A stretch of DNA of 64,000 bases from Octopus sinensis (lineage: Eukaryota), in the NCBI RefSeq assembly GCF_006345805.1, contig NC_043005.1:27032001-27096000 (forward strand), written 5' to 3'. The position numbers were made by a program, and so were the translations under genes. Of this stretch, positions 2,323 through 58,537 are shown one piece after another (within the stretch, counting starts at the first letter, position 1; each line of letters begins with the position of its first letter). The notes under the pieces are model-generated. The model was not told the DNA's origin, made no database searches, and was given only the letters and a program-made list of their open reading frames with translations.

Positions 2323-2587
2323 GACCATATAGTGTAATGGTTAAGAGCGCAGGCTACTAACCCCAAGATTCCGAGTTCGATTCCAGGCGGTGACCTGAAT
2401 AATAATAATAATAATAATAATGATAATAATATGGAAAAATACCTTAGGAATGAGAACCCAGGTTCAAAATTTCCCCAAGACACCTGATGAAGGCTGGAGG
2501 GTATATCAGCCAAAACGTGTTAACAACAAAGAAGATGAGGACAAATATCCGTCAAATGTAAATAATGTACATAATTCCTCATATCTT
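2323..2587 (+). mobile_element. tRNA-like head + (AAT)n + Penelope pLTR-like tail with hammerhead motif (copy A)
   Basis: A box TAGTGTAATGG 2330-2340; B box GAGTTCGATTCC 2373-2384; (AAT)n about 2397-2431; CTGATGA 2484-2490; stem GGCTG/CAGCC; GAAA decayed to AAAA. Homologous to 4561-5127 and 57052-57783. Confidence 0.7.
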
Positions 2588-4560: not shown

Positions 4561-5127
4561 ACAGTTATATTTTGGCAAGAAAAAGAATTATTTACATTAT
4601 TACATTTGACGGGTATTTGTCATCATCTTGTTTGTTAACACAACTTTTCGGCTGATATACCCTCCAACCTTCATCAGGTGTATTGGAGAAATTTTGAACC
4701 TGGGTTCTCATTCCTAATGTATTTTTTGAAGTTATTATTATTATTATTATTCAGGAATTGGACTTGGAATCTTGGAGTTAGTAGGCCCCTCTTTTAACCA
4801 TTTTTAAAAGACTGTCTCTACATCTATACAAGAAAGTCACATCGTTTGAAAGATGAACTAGTTTTTGATGGAGTTTCTCTATATGTTTCCATTGAAGTCT
4901 AATGTCAGCTCCATAACAATTCCTGAATAATAATGATAATAATAATAATAATAATAATAATAACATCGAAAATACCTTAGGAATGGTCTGAAATTTGCCC
5001 AAAACACCTGATGAAGCTAGAGGGTATATCAGCCGAAAGGTTGTGTTAACAACAAACAAGATGAGGACAAATATCTGTCAATTGTAAATAATGTAAATAA
5101 TTCCTCATCTCTTAAATATAGAACTGT
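4561..5127. mobile_element. Inverted pair of the hammerhead-bearing pLTR-like repeat around a Penelope-like ORF fragment (copy B)
   Basis: Minus copy 4561-4802 has a partial tRNA head. Plus copy 4923-5127 has AACAC-CTGATGA (5008-5014)...CAGCC-GAAA (5035-5038)-GGTT-GTGTT. Confidence 0.7.
4811..4924 (-). pseudogene. Fragment resembling the N-terminus of a Penelope-like element (PLE) ORF
   Basis: Translation RNCYGADIRLQWKHIEKLHQKLVHLSNDVTFLYRCRD fits the remembered PLE N-terminal pattern YG-x-R-x-EKL-x-K-x-N-x-FL-x-RC. Recognised from memory only. Confidence 0.55.
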
Positions 5128-20401: not shown

Positions 20402-21808
20402 ATCATCATCATCATCATCGTTTAACGTCCGCTTTCCATGCTAGCATGGGTTGGACGGTTCAACTGGGGTCTGGGAAGCCCGAAGGCTGCACCAGGCCAG
20501 TCAGATGTGGCAGTGTTTCTACAGCTGGATGCCCTTCCTAACGCCAACCACTCCGAGAGTGTAGTGGGTGATTTTATGTGCCACCGACACAGGTGCCAGA
20601 CGAGGCTGGCAGACGGCCACGCTCGGATGGTGTTTTTTATGTGCCCCGACACAGGTGCCAGACGAGGCTGGCAGACGACCACGCTCGGATGGTGTTTTTT
20701 ATGTGCCACCGACACAGGTGCCAGAACGAGGCTGGCAGACGGCCACGCTCGGATGGGTTTTTTATGTGCCACCGACACAGGTGCCAGACGAGGCTGGCAG
20801 ACGGCCACGCTCGGATGGTTTTCTTATGTGTCACCGACACAGGTGCTAGACGAGGCTGGCGGACGGCCACGCTCGGATGGTGTTTGTTACGTGCCCTCAG
20901 CACGGAGGCCAGTCATTGCGGTACTGGCTACGGTCACGTTCGGATGGTTTTCTTATGTGCCACCGCACTGGTACCACAAGGATACAAATTCCATTGATGT
21001 TCATCTATTTTGATTTGGTTCGATTTGATTTGATACGATTCGATTCTCACTTGCCTCAACAGGTCTTCACAAGTGTCACAAGAAGGAAGGTATGCACAGG
21101 TGGACTGACTACGTCCCAGGTAGGGGCCACGGATTATGGCTTCACTAGTCTTGCCGGGTCTTCTCACGCACAGCATACTTCCATAGGTCTCGGTCTCTAG
21201 TCATTTCCATGGTGAGACCTAACGTCCGAAGGTCGTGCTTCACCACCTCGTCCAGGTTTTCCTGGGTCTACCTCTTCCACGGGTTCCCTCAACTGCTAGG
21301 GATTGGCACTTTCTCACACACCTCTCTTCATCCATTCTCGCCACATGACCATACCAGCGCAATCGTCTCTCTTGCACACAACAACTGGTGCTTCTTAGGT
21401 ACAACATTTCTCTCAAGGTACTAACGCTCTGTCGAGTAAGTACACTGACATTACACATCCATCGGAGCATACTGGCTTCGTTCCTCACGAGCTTACGCAT
21501 GTCCTCAGCTGTCACGGCCCATGTTTCTCTGCCATGTAGCATAGCTGTTCGTACACATGCATCATACAGTCTGCCTTTTACTCTGAGCGAGAGGCCTTTA
21601 GTCACCAGCAGAGGTAAGAGCTCCCTAAACTTTGCCCAGGCTATTCTTATTCTAGCAGTTACACTTTCAGCGCACCCACCCCCACTACTGACTTGGTCAC
21701 CTAGATAGCGGAAACTATCAACTACTTCTAGTTTTTCCCCCCGGAAAGTGACAGAAGTTGTTTTCTGCAGATTTTCGGAGGTCAGTGCTCCAGAGCACCT
21801 GCCACATA
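20402..21808 (-). mobile_element. 5'-truncated RTE-clade LINE (RT C-terminus, 3' UTR with tandem repeats, (GAT)n tail)
   Basis: Minus-strand ORF FVCGRC...EKLEVVDSFRYLGDQVSSGGGC...RIRIAWAKFRELLPLL...KGRLYDACVRTAMLHG.ETW...MLRWMC...RRLRWYGHVARM...RGRPRKTW carries canonical RTE RT/thumb motifs. Frameshift near 21250. Confidence 0.92.
20570..20965. repeat. About 62-bp tandem repeat (about 6 units) inside the RTE 3' UTR
   Basis: Unit TTTTATGTGCCACCGACACAGGTGCCAGACGAGGCTGGCAGACGGCCACGCTCGGATGGTGT. Confidence 0.9.
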
Positions 21809-21861
21809 CAAAACTATATCTATATATAAATCTATATATGTGTGTGTGTATATATATATGG

Positions 21862-21906
<45 letters not shown>

Positions 21907-21932
21907 CATGGGTTGGGCAGTAAGAAAGGCGT

Positions 21933-21976
21933 TTCCATGCCGGAAATCGAACCCAGGTCGCCTGAGTGAAAGCCTG
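21933..21976 (-). pseudogene. 3' half of a tRNA-Glu(TTC)-like sequence
   Basis: The minus strand reads CAGGCT-TTC-ACTCAGGCGACCTGGGTTCGATTTCCGGCATGGAA, matching the anticodon arm, T-arm and acceptor end of metazoan tRNA-Glu. The 5' half is absent. Confidence 0.6.
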
Positions 21977-22149
21977 CAAGCATGGAAAACGGACGTTAAA
22001 CGATGATGATGATGATATGTATATATAAGCATATATATATATATATATGTGCATATATATACATATATATATAGATATGTATATATACATATAAACATAC
22101 ATATATATGTTTGTATACATATATTTATATACATATTAATATACATACA

Positions 22150-55380: not shown

Positions 55381-56320
55381 ACACATACATAAATGCATAC
55401 ACTACATATAGAATTTTACGATTCAGTTAACGTAAATTAGAATTATAAAGCAAGTACACAGACACAAACAAAGCCATGTACATTGTTTCATGTCAGACTG
55501 TCATGAGTTGGTAGTCTTTAAATATCTGTCCTTGAATCCTCTGCTTCACCATTAACAATACCACAATGCTGGCTGACGTAAGACCCTAGGCTGTCACCAT
55601 GGATCGCTCGCCTCTACTTAAGCACAGATTCCACCTGTTATCTGATTAGCACTTGTTCCGTTGAGCAGTTAATCCGCTTATCTAATCAGACGGACAAATA
55701 AGGATCAGCTATGACTAATGATTTTATTAATCATCTGATCTTGGCTTATAAAGTGACCAAAGGGTCTCCCTGACTATTGGCCCCTAACCCAACCTGCTCT
55801 TTTAAAAGGGAGTTTATTGTTTGTCTGGATTTAGATTAGCTGGAGTTTGAATTTTTTTTTTCCTTTTCTTCTCAAATTCCATAAATTCCATTGACTTAAT
55901 GATTTCTGGACATAGTGTGTGTGTGTGTAAGTTTGTACACATACATACATACATGCATACAGATATATATATATATATGTATTTATATATACACACACAC
56001 ACACACATACATACATGTATATGTAGCCGTATATATACATATATATATATACTAAGTATACATATATACAGCAGTATATATATATATCATCATCATCATA
56101 TGTGTGTGTGTGTGTGTGTGTTAAGCACTTTTTTAGGTGCAAGAGTGGGTGTGTGGTAAGTAGCTTGCTTTCCAACCACATGGTTCCGGGTTCAGTCCCC
56201 CATTGCATGGCACCTTGGGCAAGTGTCTTCTATTAGAGCCTTGTGCCAACCAGAACCTTATGGGTGGATTTGGTAGACGGAAACTGAAAGAAGCTCGTCG
56301 TATGTGTATATATATATATA
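54165..56320. repeat. Tandem duplication of about 1.07 kb
   Basis: Units about 54165-55240 and 55241-56320 (ORF offset 54740 vs 55814). Junctions lie in (TA)n; the second junction is inside a family A SINE. Confidence 0.9.
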
Positions 56321-57051
56321 TATTGTATATATTTCTGTTTCTGTGTTTGTCCCCCACCATTGCTTGAGAGCCAATGTTGGTGTGTTTGTGTCCCCTAAAC
56401 TTGGCGGTTCGGCAAAGGAGACTGATAGAATGAGTACCAGGCTTACAAAGAGTAAGTCCTGTGGTTGATTTTTTTCAACTAAAGGCGGTGCTCCAGCACG
56501 GCCACAGTCAAATGACTGAAACCAGTAAAAGAATAAAAGAAAATACCTAGAGAGAGTGAGAGACACTCACACACACTCGCACGCAAACACACACACACAC
56601 ACGCACACACATATACATATATATACAAAAGATATAGCCCAGAGAGGCCATTAGATGTACCGCAATGTGTATCGCAATGAACAGATAATCCACTGTCACA
56701 TATCTCCCTCTATTGGTATGTCTTGCTTTTGGCTATTCTGGACTTATTTTTTAATCTGACTGGATGGTCATAACTCCTCTTCCTTCACCAGGGGAGGATT
56801 TAGTAGAAAGGGACTGATTCTATTAGTTTATATGGTATCAACATCTGCTAAACTCTGACTTTATTATATTATAGATTTAAAGAGGATTTAAATAGCTTTA
56901 TCATTTAAGATATTGGAATGTAGCAGATTTAAATGTGAACGTGCACAAATATTTTGATGTGCACGAGCCAGAACATTCGCACACATTCATGTACATTCCT
57001 TTACTGATTTCAGTCATCAGACACCGACCATACTAGAGCAATATCTTAACC

Positions 57052-57164
57052 TTACATTATTTACATTTAATGGATATTTGTCCTCATCTTGTTTGTTGTT
57101 AACACAACATTTTGGCTGATATACTGGGGTTCTCATTCCTAAGGTAGTTTTCGATGTTATTATT

Positions 57165-57196
<32 letters not shown>

Positions 57197-57489
57197 TGTC
57201 ATCATCATTATTATTATTCAGGTCACTGCCTGGAATCGAACTCAGAATCTTGGAGTTAGTAGCCCATGCTCTTAACCAGCATGCCATACGCCCATGGGCG
57301 TATGACATAGTGGAGGGTATATCAGCTGAAACGTGTTAACAACAAACAAGATGAGGACAAATATCTGTCAAATGTAAATAATGTAAATAATTCCTCATCT
57401 CTTAAATATAGAACTGAATAATAATAATAATAATAATGATAATGATGATTATGATGATAATAATAATAATAATAATGATGATGATTATG

Positions 57490-57522
<33 letters not shown>

Positions 57523-57575
57523 TAATAATAATGATGATGATTATGATAATAATAATAATAATGATGATGATTATG

Positions 57576-57612
<37 letters not shown>

Positions 57613-57783
57613 TAACATCGAAAATACCTTAGGAATGAGAACCCAGGTTTGAAATTTCCCCAAGACACCTGATGAAGGCTGGAGAGTATATCAGCCGAAA
57701 CGTGTTAACAACAAACAAGATGACAAATATCCGTCAAATGTAAATAATGTACATAATTCCTCATCTCTTAAATATAGAACTGT
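57052..57783. mobile_element. Composite insertion of the tRNA/hammerhead repeat: inverted copy plus two tandem copies (copy C)
   Basis: Minus copy 57052-57293 has the full 73-nt tRNA-like head (57221-57293). Partial plus copy about 57296-57417; (AAT/GAT)n 57417-57613; plus tail 57614-57783 with CTGATGA-A-GGCTG..CAGCC-GAAAC. Direct repeat AATATCTTAACC at 57040-57051 and 57784-57795. Confidence 0.75.
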
Positions 57784-58537
57784 AATATCTTAACCCTTTA
57801 GCATTCAGAATGCTCTATCAAATGTCATGCTTATTTATTCATTTTGCACCTTCAAAATTTCAATGATGTAATTGCTTATTTTTAGAATGACATTGTAGGG
57901 TAGGTGTGAGAGATTGGATCTGGCCAGTTTAAATGCTAAAGGGTAAAAGGATTTTTTTTGTGGTGGGGGTCAGTTATATCAGCCTATTTTGGATTTTGCA
58001 GGATACTTACCTTAATTTCATAAGGAATAAATGTGAAAACTTAAGCAAAGATTTAGACATAACTACAGAATAATATAATACCACAAGGCATTTTCAGGAT
58101 GTTTCACCATCCCGTGCCAACACAGACAGAGGCTTCCTGACATCTAGATTTATTTCTATATTTCTGATTCACATTGTGTTGCTTTCTAGTTATGTGTTTC
58201 CGGGTTCAGTCCCACTGCATGACACCTTGGGCAAGTATCTTCTAATATGATCCCTAGCTGACCAATGCATTATGAATGGATTTAGTCAGCAGAAATGAAG
58301 AAACTTCTCATGCATGAATGAATTTGTATTCCCCGCATGTTCACTGGTTTGGAAACAATGGCTTCCTAACAGTAAGAGGCATGGTTAGGTTGTCTGATAT
58401 CTGACGGACAAGGAGAGTGTTACCTCATCTGGAAATAAGTAAGTGTTGGTGACAGGAAGAACGTCCAGCTGTAGAAAAGCTCGGCCTCGATGTATTCTTG
58501 TCTGACCCATGCAAGCTTAAAAAAGTAGACTTTAAAA

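What the first reader, a model, noticed from the sequence alone, without database searches (positions are those of the whole stretch)
57040..57795. Single insertion with a 12-bp TSD containing a fold-back junction and tandem hammerhead tails
Seen: AATATCTTAACC flanks the whole 732-bp unit. The tRNA head meets its own inverse in a palindrome (ATGCCATACGCCC-AT-GGGCGTATGACAT, 57281-57308). Two tails follow head-to-tail through (AAT)n. Established: inverted plus tandem pLTRs and TSDs are hallmarks of endonuclease-bearing PLE insertions, and loop-less hammerheads need tandem copies to dimerise. Inference: reverse transcription of a multimeric or circular template with hairpin self-priming at the tRNA 5' end.
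Basis: partly seen in the sequence, partly recalled or inferred. Interest (0 to 1): 0.72.

Follow-up and report, generated by a model that had tools for sequence, protein, structure and literature searches.

The report
Folded-back Penelope retrotransposon end-repeat insertion
This 732-base insertion is made of three broken pieces of the end repeat of a very common protein-coding jumping gene (a Penelope-like element) inside one target duplication, and its mirror-image joint recurs at hundreds of other copies, likely because the new DNA copy folds back on a small built-in hairpin and is then joined to a second copy begun from the other cut strand.

Summary
In detail: exact 12-bp TSD, 732 bp inside, 14-bp palindrome arms with one mismatch, two tails joined through (AAT)n. 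The unit is not a free SINE. It is the pseudo-LTR (tRNA-like head, (AAT)n, minimal hammerhead, ORF start) of an abundant RT + GIY-YIG Penelope-type element.

The layout is the family norm: 54 of 56 inverted pairs have one long and one short end, and 33 of 56 carry a TSD (controls 1 of 391). The palindrome centres on a native hairpin just before the head. About 470 loci fold back there; 48 of 57 examined show a full head facing a stub of 26 nt or less, often rejoined by microhomology, as here (19 nt, TGG).

None of the three hammerheads at this locus is intact, so no dimer can form; a circular template is not supported. No empty site was found; the left junction is also filled in two other samples.

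The scan reported this family before, in this and other genomes. What this locus adds is the fold-back-stub signature. A Pol III promoter role for the head is likely but untested.

The parts
57040..57051 (+). Left copy of the 12-bp target-site duplication; ends in TTAA+CC, a copy of the first bases of the neighbouring MITE end
   Evidence: TIR position
57052..57158 (-). Inverted arm, pLTR 3' part (ORF start) with the SHORT end (lacks the ~27-30-nt tail); ~39-nt internal deletion removes CTGATGA; keeps the long (triplet-bearing) hammerhead variant at 57101-57113
   Evidence: junction bridged, with 9 extra letters, in runs X4 and X9
57159..57218 (-). (AAT/GAT)n tract of the inverted arm
57219..57294 (-). 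Full tRNA-like head of the inverted arm (A-box-like 57276-57286, B-box-like 57233-57243)
   Evidence: box consensus recalled; no ARAGORN or Rfam call
57289..57300 (.). Core of the fold-back: the element's native 5+2+5 palindrome just before the head; the outer pair is changed on both sides here (C..G for the family's T..A)
57295..57313 (+). 19-nt sense stub of the head; its last 3 nt (TGG, 57311-57313) are a microhomology shared with tail 1
57311..57416 (+). Tail 1: 5'-truncated pLTR 3' part with the LONG end; no CTGATGA; short hammerhead variant
57417..57613 (+). (AAT/GAT)n tract between the tandem tails
57614..57783 (+). Tail 2: full pLTR 3' part, ORF start ATG in 57632-57643, hammerhead remnant (CTGATGA 57669-57675, GAAAC 57697) without the cleavage triplet, LONG end
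57784..57795 (+). Right copy of the 12-bp target-site duplication
57794..57943 (.). Target context, not part of the insertion: 150-bp high-copy MITE with perfect 12-bp terminal inverted repeats, preceded by TTAA (piggyBac-like ends, label recalled)

Best explanation
The unit is a non-coding stub insertion of the pseudo-LTR of an abundant RT + GIY-YIG Penelope-type retrotransposon, bounded by one 12-bp target duplication, and it likely arose in one event in which both cut target strands primed cDNA and a short hairpin fold-back joined the two cDNAs. Shown: the pLTR is tRNA-like head + (AAT)n + minimal hammerhead + ORF start; arms end at two fixed sites about 30 nt apart; the joint sits on a native palindrome; one side is a short stub rejoined by microhomology. 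Inferred steps: (1) the endonuclease cuts the two strands 12 nt apart. (2) One strand primes at the short site and copies an RNA to its 5' end just before the head; this becomes the left arm. (3) That cDNA end folds on the native palindrome and is extended 19 nt on itself, giving a sense-strand stub. (4) The other strand primes at the long site, copies tail 2 and the (AAT)n, and starts again at the long site (tail 1), or copies an already tandem RNA. (5) The sense stub pairs through TGG with this antisense cDNA and repair closes the gap. The locus is dead: no intact ribozyme, no ORF beyond about 50 codons. [quoted passage not shown]
For: Identity: a same-strand head follows the endonuclease end of the ORF in 27 of 30 loci (two look like duplicates of two others). 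The tail runs on into the ORF in 8 of 30 loci picked by the ORF's 5' part; L250 has a 388-aa frame from the ATG in the tail. RVT_1 hit E=2e-6, just under the curated cut-off; GIY-YIG clusters at score 0.96. Two-ended priming: 54 of 56 inverted pairs (55 distinct) are long+short; TSD score >=10 in 33 of 56 against 1 of 391 mismatched controls. PAc cuts and extends both strands and starts at two internal sites that define the tail (PMC11167929, parts 1-2 of 4 read). Fold-back: 827 strand hits of the 21-mer, about 470 loci, against 432 read-through copies. 48 of 57 such loci are full head + stub, 3 full + full; rejoin microhomology averages 2.5 nt (n=22 assignable of 59 stubs) against 0.39 null; the two sides share minority bases at 14 of 512 sites, 2.7% against 1.3% permuted, 0 of 3000 permutations as high. 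Here both sides carry a minority G seen on one side only in 4 of 56 other loci and never on both. In 2 of 10 loci where the stub runs straight into flank, a TSD begins at the stub (controls 0 of 90). The TSD holds the first two bases of the neighbouring MITE's TIR, as expected if it was duplicated at insertion.
Against: No empty allele seen, so 'one event' rests on the TSD and the family pattern. The 57 fold-back loci were selected for an intact 21-nt palindrome, and long perfect palindromes are unstable, so later one-sided deletion could also leave short stubs; 8 of the 10 direct-stub loci show no TSD. 37 of 59 stubs could not be assigned a rejoin site. Only 3 of 48 pairs not selected for the palindrome matched a strict palindrome pattern, although 25 of 48 have an arm ending at head positions 1-5 (my count), so fold-back is one route among several. 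Tails 1 and 2 share the short hammerhead variant but differ at a family-polymorphic base, so their common template is not shown. EN gave no Pfam hit. No RNA data were examined.
Confidence: 0.68

Rival explanations
1. Same element and TSD, but inserted as two full mirror arms (self-priming on an antisense RNA, or direct annealing of two cDNAs at the palindrome); the stub and the TGG joint come from a later microhomology deletion in an unstable palindrome.
For: Self-priming on an antisense template was proposed for head-to-head PLE palindromes (PMC3846280, passages). 3 of 57 loci are full + full. Microhomology joints fit deletion as well as template switching; the left arm itself has a ~39-nt deletion.
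Against: Stub lengths pile up at 26 nt or less, with almost none between 35 and 60. A TSD directly at the stub in 2 of 10. Arms of one locus differ almost as much as random arms (8.0% against 8.7% per site) and are mostly discordant when one has the short hammerhead variant (13 discordant, 3 both short), which does not fit one arm being a full copy of the other.
Confidence: 0.17
2. Two events: an inverted-pair insertion made the TSD; a second, 5'-truncated copy (tail 1) later landed in the first copy's own (AAT)n and removed head positions 20-76.
For: 8 of 17 tail-to-(AAT)n loci continue into other sequence, so (AAT)n tracts are targets. PAc prefers ATT and can cut its own pLTR (PMC11167929). 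Tandem units often differ in family variants.
Against: It needs a target deletion that stops where stubs of single events also stop. Both tails carry the minority short variant (385 against 3002 exact copies), although this variant seems to arise repeatedly.
Confidence: 0.1
3. One reading: reverse transcription of a ribozyme-processed multimeric or circular RNA, with tandem hammerheads kept for dimer cleavage.
For: Arrays of 2-5 (AAT)n+tail units exist (9 of 17 loci). Circles as PLE templates were proposed (PMC4209133, parts 1-2 of 4). The family majority has an intact minimal hammerhead.
Against: No intact or complementing hammerhead at this locus. The joints lie at the long RT-start end, not the cut site. 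Units of one array differ in long/short variant in 3 of 9 arrays clearly. PAc inserts unprocessed RNA and needs no ribozyme cut in vitro (PMC11167929).
Confidence: 0.05

Closest known systems
Penelope/Poseidon EN+ PLEs; PAc of Anolis (PMC11167929, parts 1-2 of 4 read)
   Same: RT followed by C-terminal GIY-YIG; pLTR overlaps the ORF start and holds a minimal hammerhead; two insertion ends about 30 nt apart; AT-rich targets.
   Different: Here the pLTR begins with a tRNA-like A/B-box segment and an (AAT)n tract; the ATG lies about 33 nt before the hammerhead core rather than at stem II. No phylogeny was built, so the clade label rests on domain order and motifs.
Adineta vaga Penelope insertions, Pen2a/Pen2/Pen3a (PMC3846280, passages)
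   Same: Adjacent inverted pLTR, tail at one end, 8-10-bp TSD around the whole unit, palindromes at the pLTR 5' end and inverted junction, microhomology joints.
   Different: That paper reads head-to-head joints as self-priming on an antisense template. Here the joints are mostly full head + short stub, which allows a sense template with two primers. TSDs here are mostly 11-14 bp.
Structure overview of EN+ PLEs (PMC8557442, passages) and minimal hammerheads in pLTRs (PMC4209133, parts 1-2 of 4)
   Same: Partial tandems, inverted 5'-truncated copy, 30-40-bp tail; minimal hammerhead with unpaired base before stem II, G10.1-C11.1 and palindromic 15.2/16.2 in the family majority.
   Different: No tRNA-derived pLTR head in the passages seen; all three hammerheads at this locus are broken.
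TRIMp3 elements Helenus, Ajax, Cassandra (PMC10886601, passages)
   Same: A small-RNA-derived Pol III-type promoter inside a terminal repeat.
   Different: Those are non-autonomous LTR elements; here the repeat belongs to a protein-coding PLE and sits in frame-sharing contact with its ORF.
SMalpha / Sjalpha SINE-like hammerhead retroposons (PMC8490949, passages) and animal retrozymes (bioRxiv 10.64898/2026.07.22.740005, part 1 of 5)
   Same: Short repeats with a type I hammerhead, dispersed or tandem, linked to PLE pLTRs.
   Different: Here the short copies are colinear pieces of the autonomous element's own pLTR, usually inverted pairs; this locus fails the retrozyme criterion of two complete hammerheads.

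Membership tests
EN+ Penelope-like element (source family) | Single ORF with RT and C-terminal GIY-YIG endonuclease | tested here: met
   RVT_1 E=2e-6, 28.1 bits, cut-off 29.6; GIY-YIG clusters 0.96 in the Atlas, no Pfam hit; order seen in decayed copy L103. No intact full ORF was sought.
EN+ Penelope-like element (source family) | pLTR at both ORF ends, overlapping the ORF start | tested here: met
   Head after the ORF end in 27 of 30; tail runs into the ORF in 8 of 30
EN+ Penelope-like element (source family) | Inverted pLTR, 30-40-nt tail at one end only, TSD round the whole unit | tested here: met
   54 of 56 long+short; TSD in 33 of 56 against 1 of 391; this locus conforms
EN+ Penelope-like element (source family) | Minimal hammerhead in the pLTR | tested here: met
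   Family majority: 3002 exact copies of the triplet-bearing form against 385 short; stems I and II fold (z about -1.9). No Rfam hit.
Penelope/Poseidon clade | Phylogenetic placement of RT | not tested
   No tree built; label from domain order and likeness to PAc layout
Functional dimeric hammerhead / non-LTR retrozyme at this locus | Two consecutive units with complete CUGANGA, GAAA, NUH and stem I | tested here: not met
   Tail 1 lacks CTGATGA, both tails lack the cleavage triplet, the inverted arm lacks CTGATGA
tRNA-derived SINE | tRNA-derived head with A and B boxes | tested here: inconclusive
   Colinear likeness to several of 15 distinct tRNAs of G000, z 5-8 against a crude shuffle, no single parent; ARAGORN and Rfam give nothing
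tRNA-derived SINE | Separate non-autonomous unit, sharing only its 3' end with the partner | tested here: not met
   Head, (AAT)n and tail are all part of the autonomous element's pLTR
tRNA-derived SINE | Transcription by RNA polymerase III | not testable with these tools
   Indirect only: 31 of 36 arms that reach the head stop within 8 nt upstream of it (30 after one misclassed row; some are the two sides of one joint). No T4+ run on the sense strand over about 2.7 kb, not clearly below codon-shuffle expectation.

The most novel reading that the evidence does not exclude
A protein-coding Penelope element is transcribed by RNA polymerase III from a tRNA-derived promoter in its pLTR, and the small hairpin at that RNA's 5' end is a built-in joining device: the finished cDNA folds back, grows a 10-26-nt sense stub and splices itself to the cDNA primed on the other target strand. 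This would explain the head-to-head inverted ends of PLE insertions without an antisense template.
Probability: 0.3. Interest if true: 0.75.

Novelty: new variant of a known kind. Interest (0 to 1): 0.45.

Why it matters
This locus alone is dead retrotransposon debris of a known architecture. The family matters for two reasons. First, how PLEs make head-to-head inverted ends is stated as open in PMC3846280 and PMC8557442 (passages), and PMC11167929 leaves the steps after first-strand synthesis unvalidated. Hundreds of joints at one native hairpin, with short stubs and microhomology rejoining, give a concrete model that the existing in vitro system could test. Second, a tRNA-like head in the pLTR of an autonomous PLE blurs the SINE/PLE boundary and means that some repeats annotated as SINEs in such genomes are PLE ends. 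I found no description of a tRNA-headed pLTR in searches.

Tried and rejected
Empty site: left flank laid on 4 of 24 listed runs. X4 and X9 bridge into the element, X8's contig stops at 57030, X10 has no cover; no empty allele. The right flank on 4 runs was swamped by the MITE and told nothing about the junction. Rfam and ARAGORN found no tRNA or hammerhead in the window or at E<=1 in 7 loci (only simple-repeat miRNA/snoRNA matches). Parent tRNA: unresolved; the 15 sampled tRNAs cover 6 amino acids only. Telomerase-like repeat addition at the short end: the 9-nt unit there varies in number in long arms and full-length copies too, so not supported. Pol III terminator avoidance: no T4+ run, but P 0.03-0.7 by frame; inconclusive. 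Assembly artefact: rejected, since the left junction is in independent runs and the architecture is family-wide with TSDs. Independent SINE with PLE-derived tail: rejected. No host exon was identified near the locus from the ORF list; the gene context was not worked out. A look-up of earlier findings by sequence gave nothing.

Full report
Observation. The 12-mer is exact at 57040-57051 and 57784-57795, 732 bp apart inside, and occurs nowhere else in the window (expected 0.03). The palindrome 57281-57308 has 14-nt arms with one mismatch. From left to right the unit is: an inverted arm (tail part 57052-57158, microsatellite, full head 57219-57294), a 19-nt forward stub of the head, tail 1 (57311-57416), (AAT/GAT)n, and tail 2 (57614-57783). 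The host is a 2.72-Gb animal genome, G000; likely an octopus, which is my inference and is also said in earlier scan notes.

What the repeat is. The tail has 2193 first-look candidates in G000; 40 position-picked 10-kb stretches held 5 loci, so tens of thousands of copies is a rough extrapolation. Two of the 30 best loci lay beside a GIY-YIG-like ORF end. Searching with that end, 27 of 30 loci show ORF end, a short spacer ending in a 5+2+5 palindrome, then the head on the same strand. Searching with the 5' part of the ORF, 8 of 30 loci show the tail running straight into the ORF, and L250 has a 388-aa frame from the ATG inside the tail. L103 is a textbook copy: inverted repeat, truncated RT-EN ORF, repeat with tail, TSD. 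RT gives RVT_1 at E=2e-6, just under the cut-off; EN gives no Pfam hit but GIY-YIG Atlas clusters at 0.96. So head + (AAT)n + hammerhead + ORF start is the pseudo-LTR of an EN+ Penelope-like element, and the finding is a pLTR-only stub.

The architecture is the family norm. Among 58 loci taken in genome order by hammerhead pattern, 29 lie in an inverted pair. Over all sets, 54 of 56 pairs (55 distinct) have one arm ending at tail position 168-176 and the other ending earlier (136-152), and 33 of 56 have a TSD scoring 10 or more against 1 of 391 mismatched controls. This matches the inverted pLTR, one-sided tail and TSD described for Adineta (PMC3846280, passages) and in PMC8557442 (passages), and the two start sites and two-strand cleavage of PAc (PMC11167929, parts 1-2 of 4). 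At this locus the TSD includes TTAA plus the first two bases of the TIR of a 150-bp MITE on the right (57794-57943), which fits duplication at insertion after the MITE was in place.

The fold-back. The window's palindrome centres on the element's own hairpin. A 21-nt head-to-head pattern has 827 strand hits; the first 100 are 57 loci, so about 470 in all, against 432 copies that read through into the spacer. I examined 56 of those 57 loci plus the window: 48 are full head + stub, 5 stub + stub, 3 full + full, 1 other. Stubs are 10-26 nt with one of 34; the lower bound is set by the pattern. For the 22 of 59 stubs whose rejoin site could be mapped, microhomology averages 2.5 nt (null 0.39; 10 of 22 have 3 or more, null 2.4%). 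The two sides share minority bases twice as often as permuted pairs (14 of 512 sites). In the window both sides carry a minority G. In 2 of 10 loci where the stub meets flank directly, the TSD starts at the stub (0 of 90 controls); where the stub leads to a second arm, that arm is long in 9 and short in 9. Against this: the set was selected for an intact centre, 8 of 10 direct stubs have no TSD, and in pairs not selected for it a strict palindrome is seen in only 3 of 48.

Two templates or one. Arms of a locus share slightly more minority bases than random arms (0.8% against 0.44%) but differ almost as much (8.0% against 8.7%), and where one arm has the short hammerhead variant the other mostly does not (13 discordant, 3 both short, 9 both long; 30 of 55 pairs had an arm that could not be typed or were not long+short). 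In the window the left arm is long and both forward tails are short. The left arm is therefore not a mirror copy of the right, which fits two cDNAs joined in the middle.

The tandem tails. A strict 30-nt tail-to-(AAT)n pattern has 21 hits at 17 loci (control 0). In 9 loci another tail follows directly, with arrays of up to 5 units; in 8 other sequence follows. The joint is at the long end. Units often differ in family variants. Re-initiation at the long site, a tandem source RNA, and a second insertion into the own (AAT)n all give this joint, and I cannot separate them. Nothing points to a ribozyme-made circle.

The hammerhead. The family majority carries a minimal type I motif: 3002 exact copies with the cleavage triplet against 385 lacking 3 nt, with stems I and II folding as expected and the features listed in PMC4209133 (parts 1-2 of 4). 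At this locus no copy is complete and none can supply the cleavage strand to another.

The head. It aligns colinearly with several G000 tRNAs (z 5-8 on a crude shuffle, no single parent among 15) and has A- and B-box-like motifs (consensus recalled), but ARAGORN and Rfam do not call it. Of 36 arms that reach it in 98 loci, 31 stop within 8 nt upstream (30 after correcting L183 by eye; 12 more start inside the head). That fits an RNA start there, or a stop at the hairpin. Pol III transcription is untested.

Other samples. Runs X4 and X9 (organism B, two studies) bridge the left junction with 9 extra letters; no empty allele was seen, and the right flank was uninformative.

Prior reports. Paper searches gave no description of a tRNA-headed pLTR or of the stub pattern; supplements were not read, and Repbase and Dfam were not available. 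Also seen: PMC13282606, PMC4824008, PMC10886601, PMC8490949 (passages) and bioRxiv 10.64898/2026.07.22.740005 (part 1 of 5). Earlier scan notes describe the same family in this and other genomes; my reading was fixed before I saw them, and they are not independent support.

Verdict. Real, single-TSD stub of a Penelope-type element; known architecture; dead ribozymes; new variant because of the tRNA-like pLTR head and a testable fold-back-stub signature. Interest 0.45.

Noticed in passing
window 57794-57943: 150-bp high-copy MITE with perfect 12-bp TIRs; TTAA precedes the TIR in 4 of 6 ends seen; very deep cover in four runs.
   Followed up: partly
window 2326-2587 (+) and 4561-4800 (-) / 4926-5127 (+): Two more loci of the same pLTR family in this window: a solo copy with head, and an older inverted pair with about 125 bp of other sequence between the arms.
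   Followed up: partly
32 inverted pairs with TSD; window 57783-57790: Target bases at the long end resemble the template's continuation (84 of 163 matches in the first 6 positions against 59.6 shuffled; 7 of 8 in the window). This may be microhomology-assisted priming or an AT(T) cut preference, but TSD edges are defined by matching, which inflates it.
   Followed up: partly
L124 (G000:C2:35669784-35670338) and L135: Arrays of 5 and 3 (AAT)n+tail units; three inner units of L124 share a deletion, suggesting local duplication.
   Followed up: partly
family tail, positions about 133-151: A 9-nt unit occurs in 1-3 copies at the short insertion end; this and other common indels in the tail are multiples of 3 and keep the ORF frame.
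   Followed up: partly
window 21240-21995 (-): 251-aa stop-free frame that looks like the end of a LINE reverse transcriptase, RTE-like (label recalled).
   Followed up: no
window 56165-56235 and 58179-58247: Two copies of another SINE-like repeat flank the locus about 2 kb apart.
   Followed up: no
L101/L102 (G000:C4:104350001-104366000) and L091/L092: A 4.65-kb segmental tandem that includes a truncated copy of this PLE; it appears twice in the assembly, on C4 and C9560.
   Followed up: no
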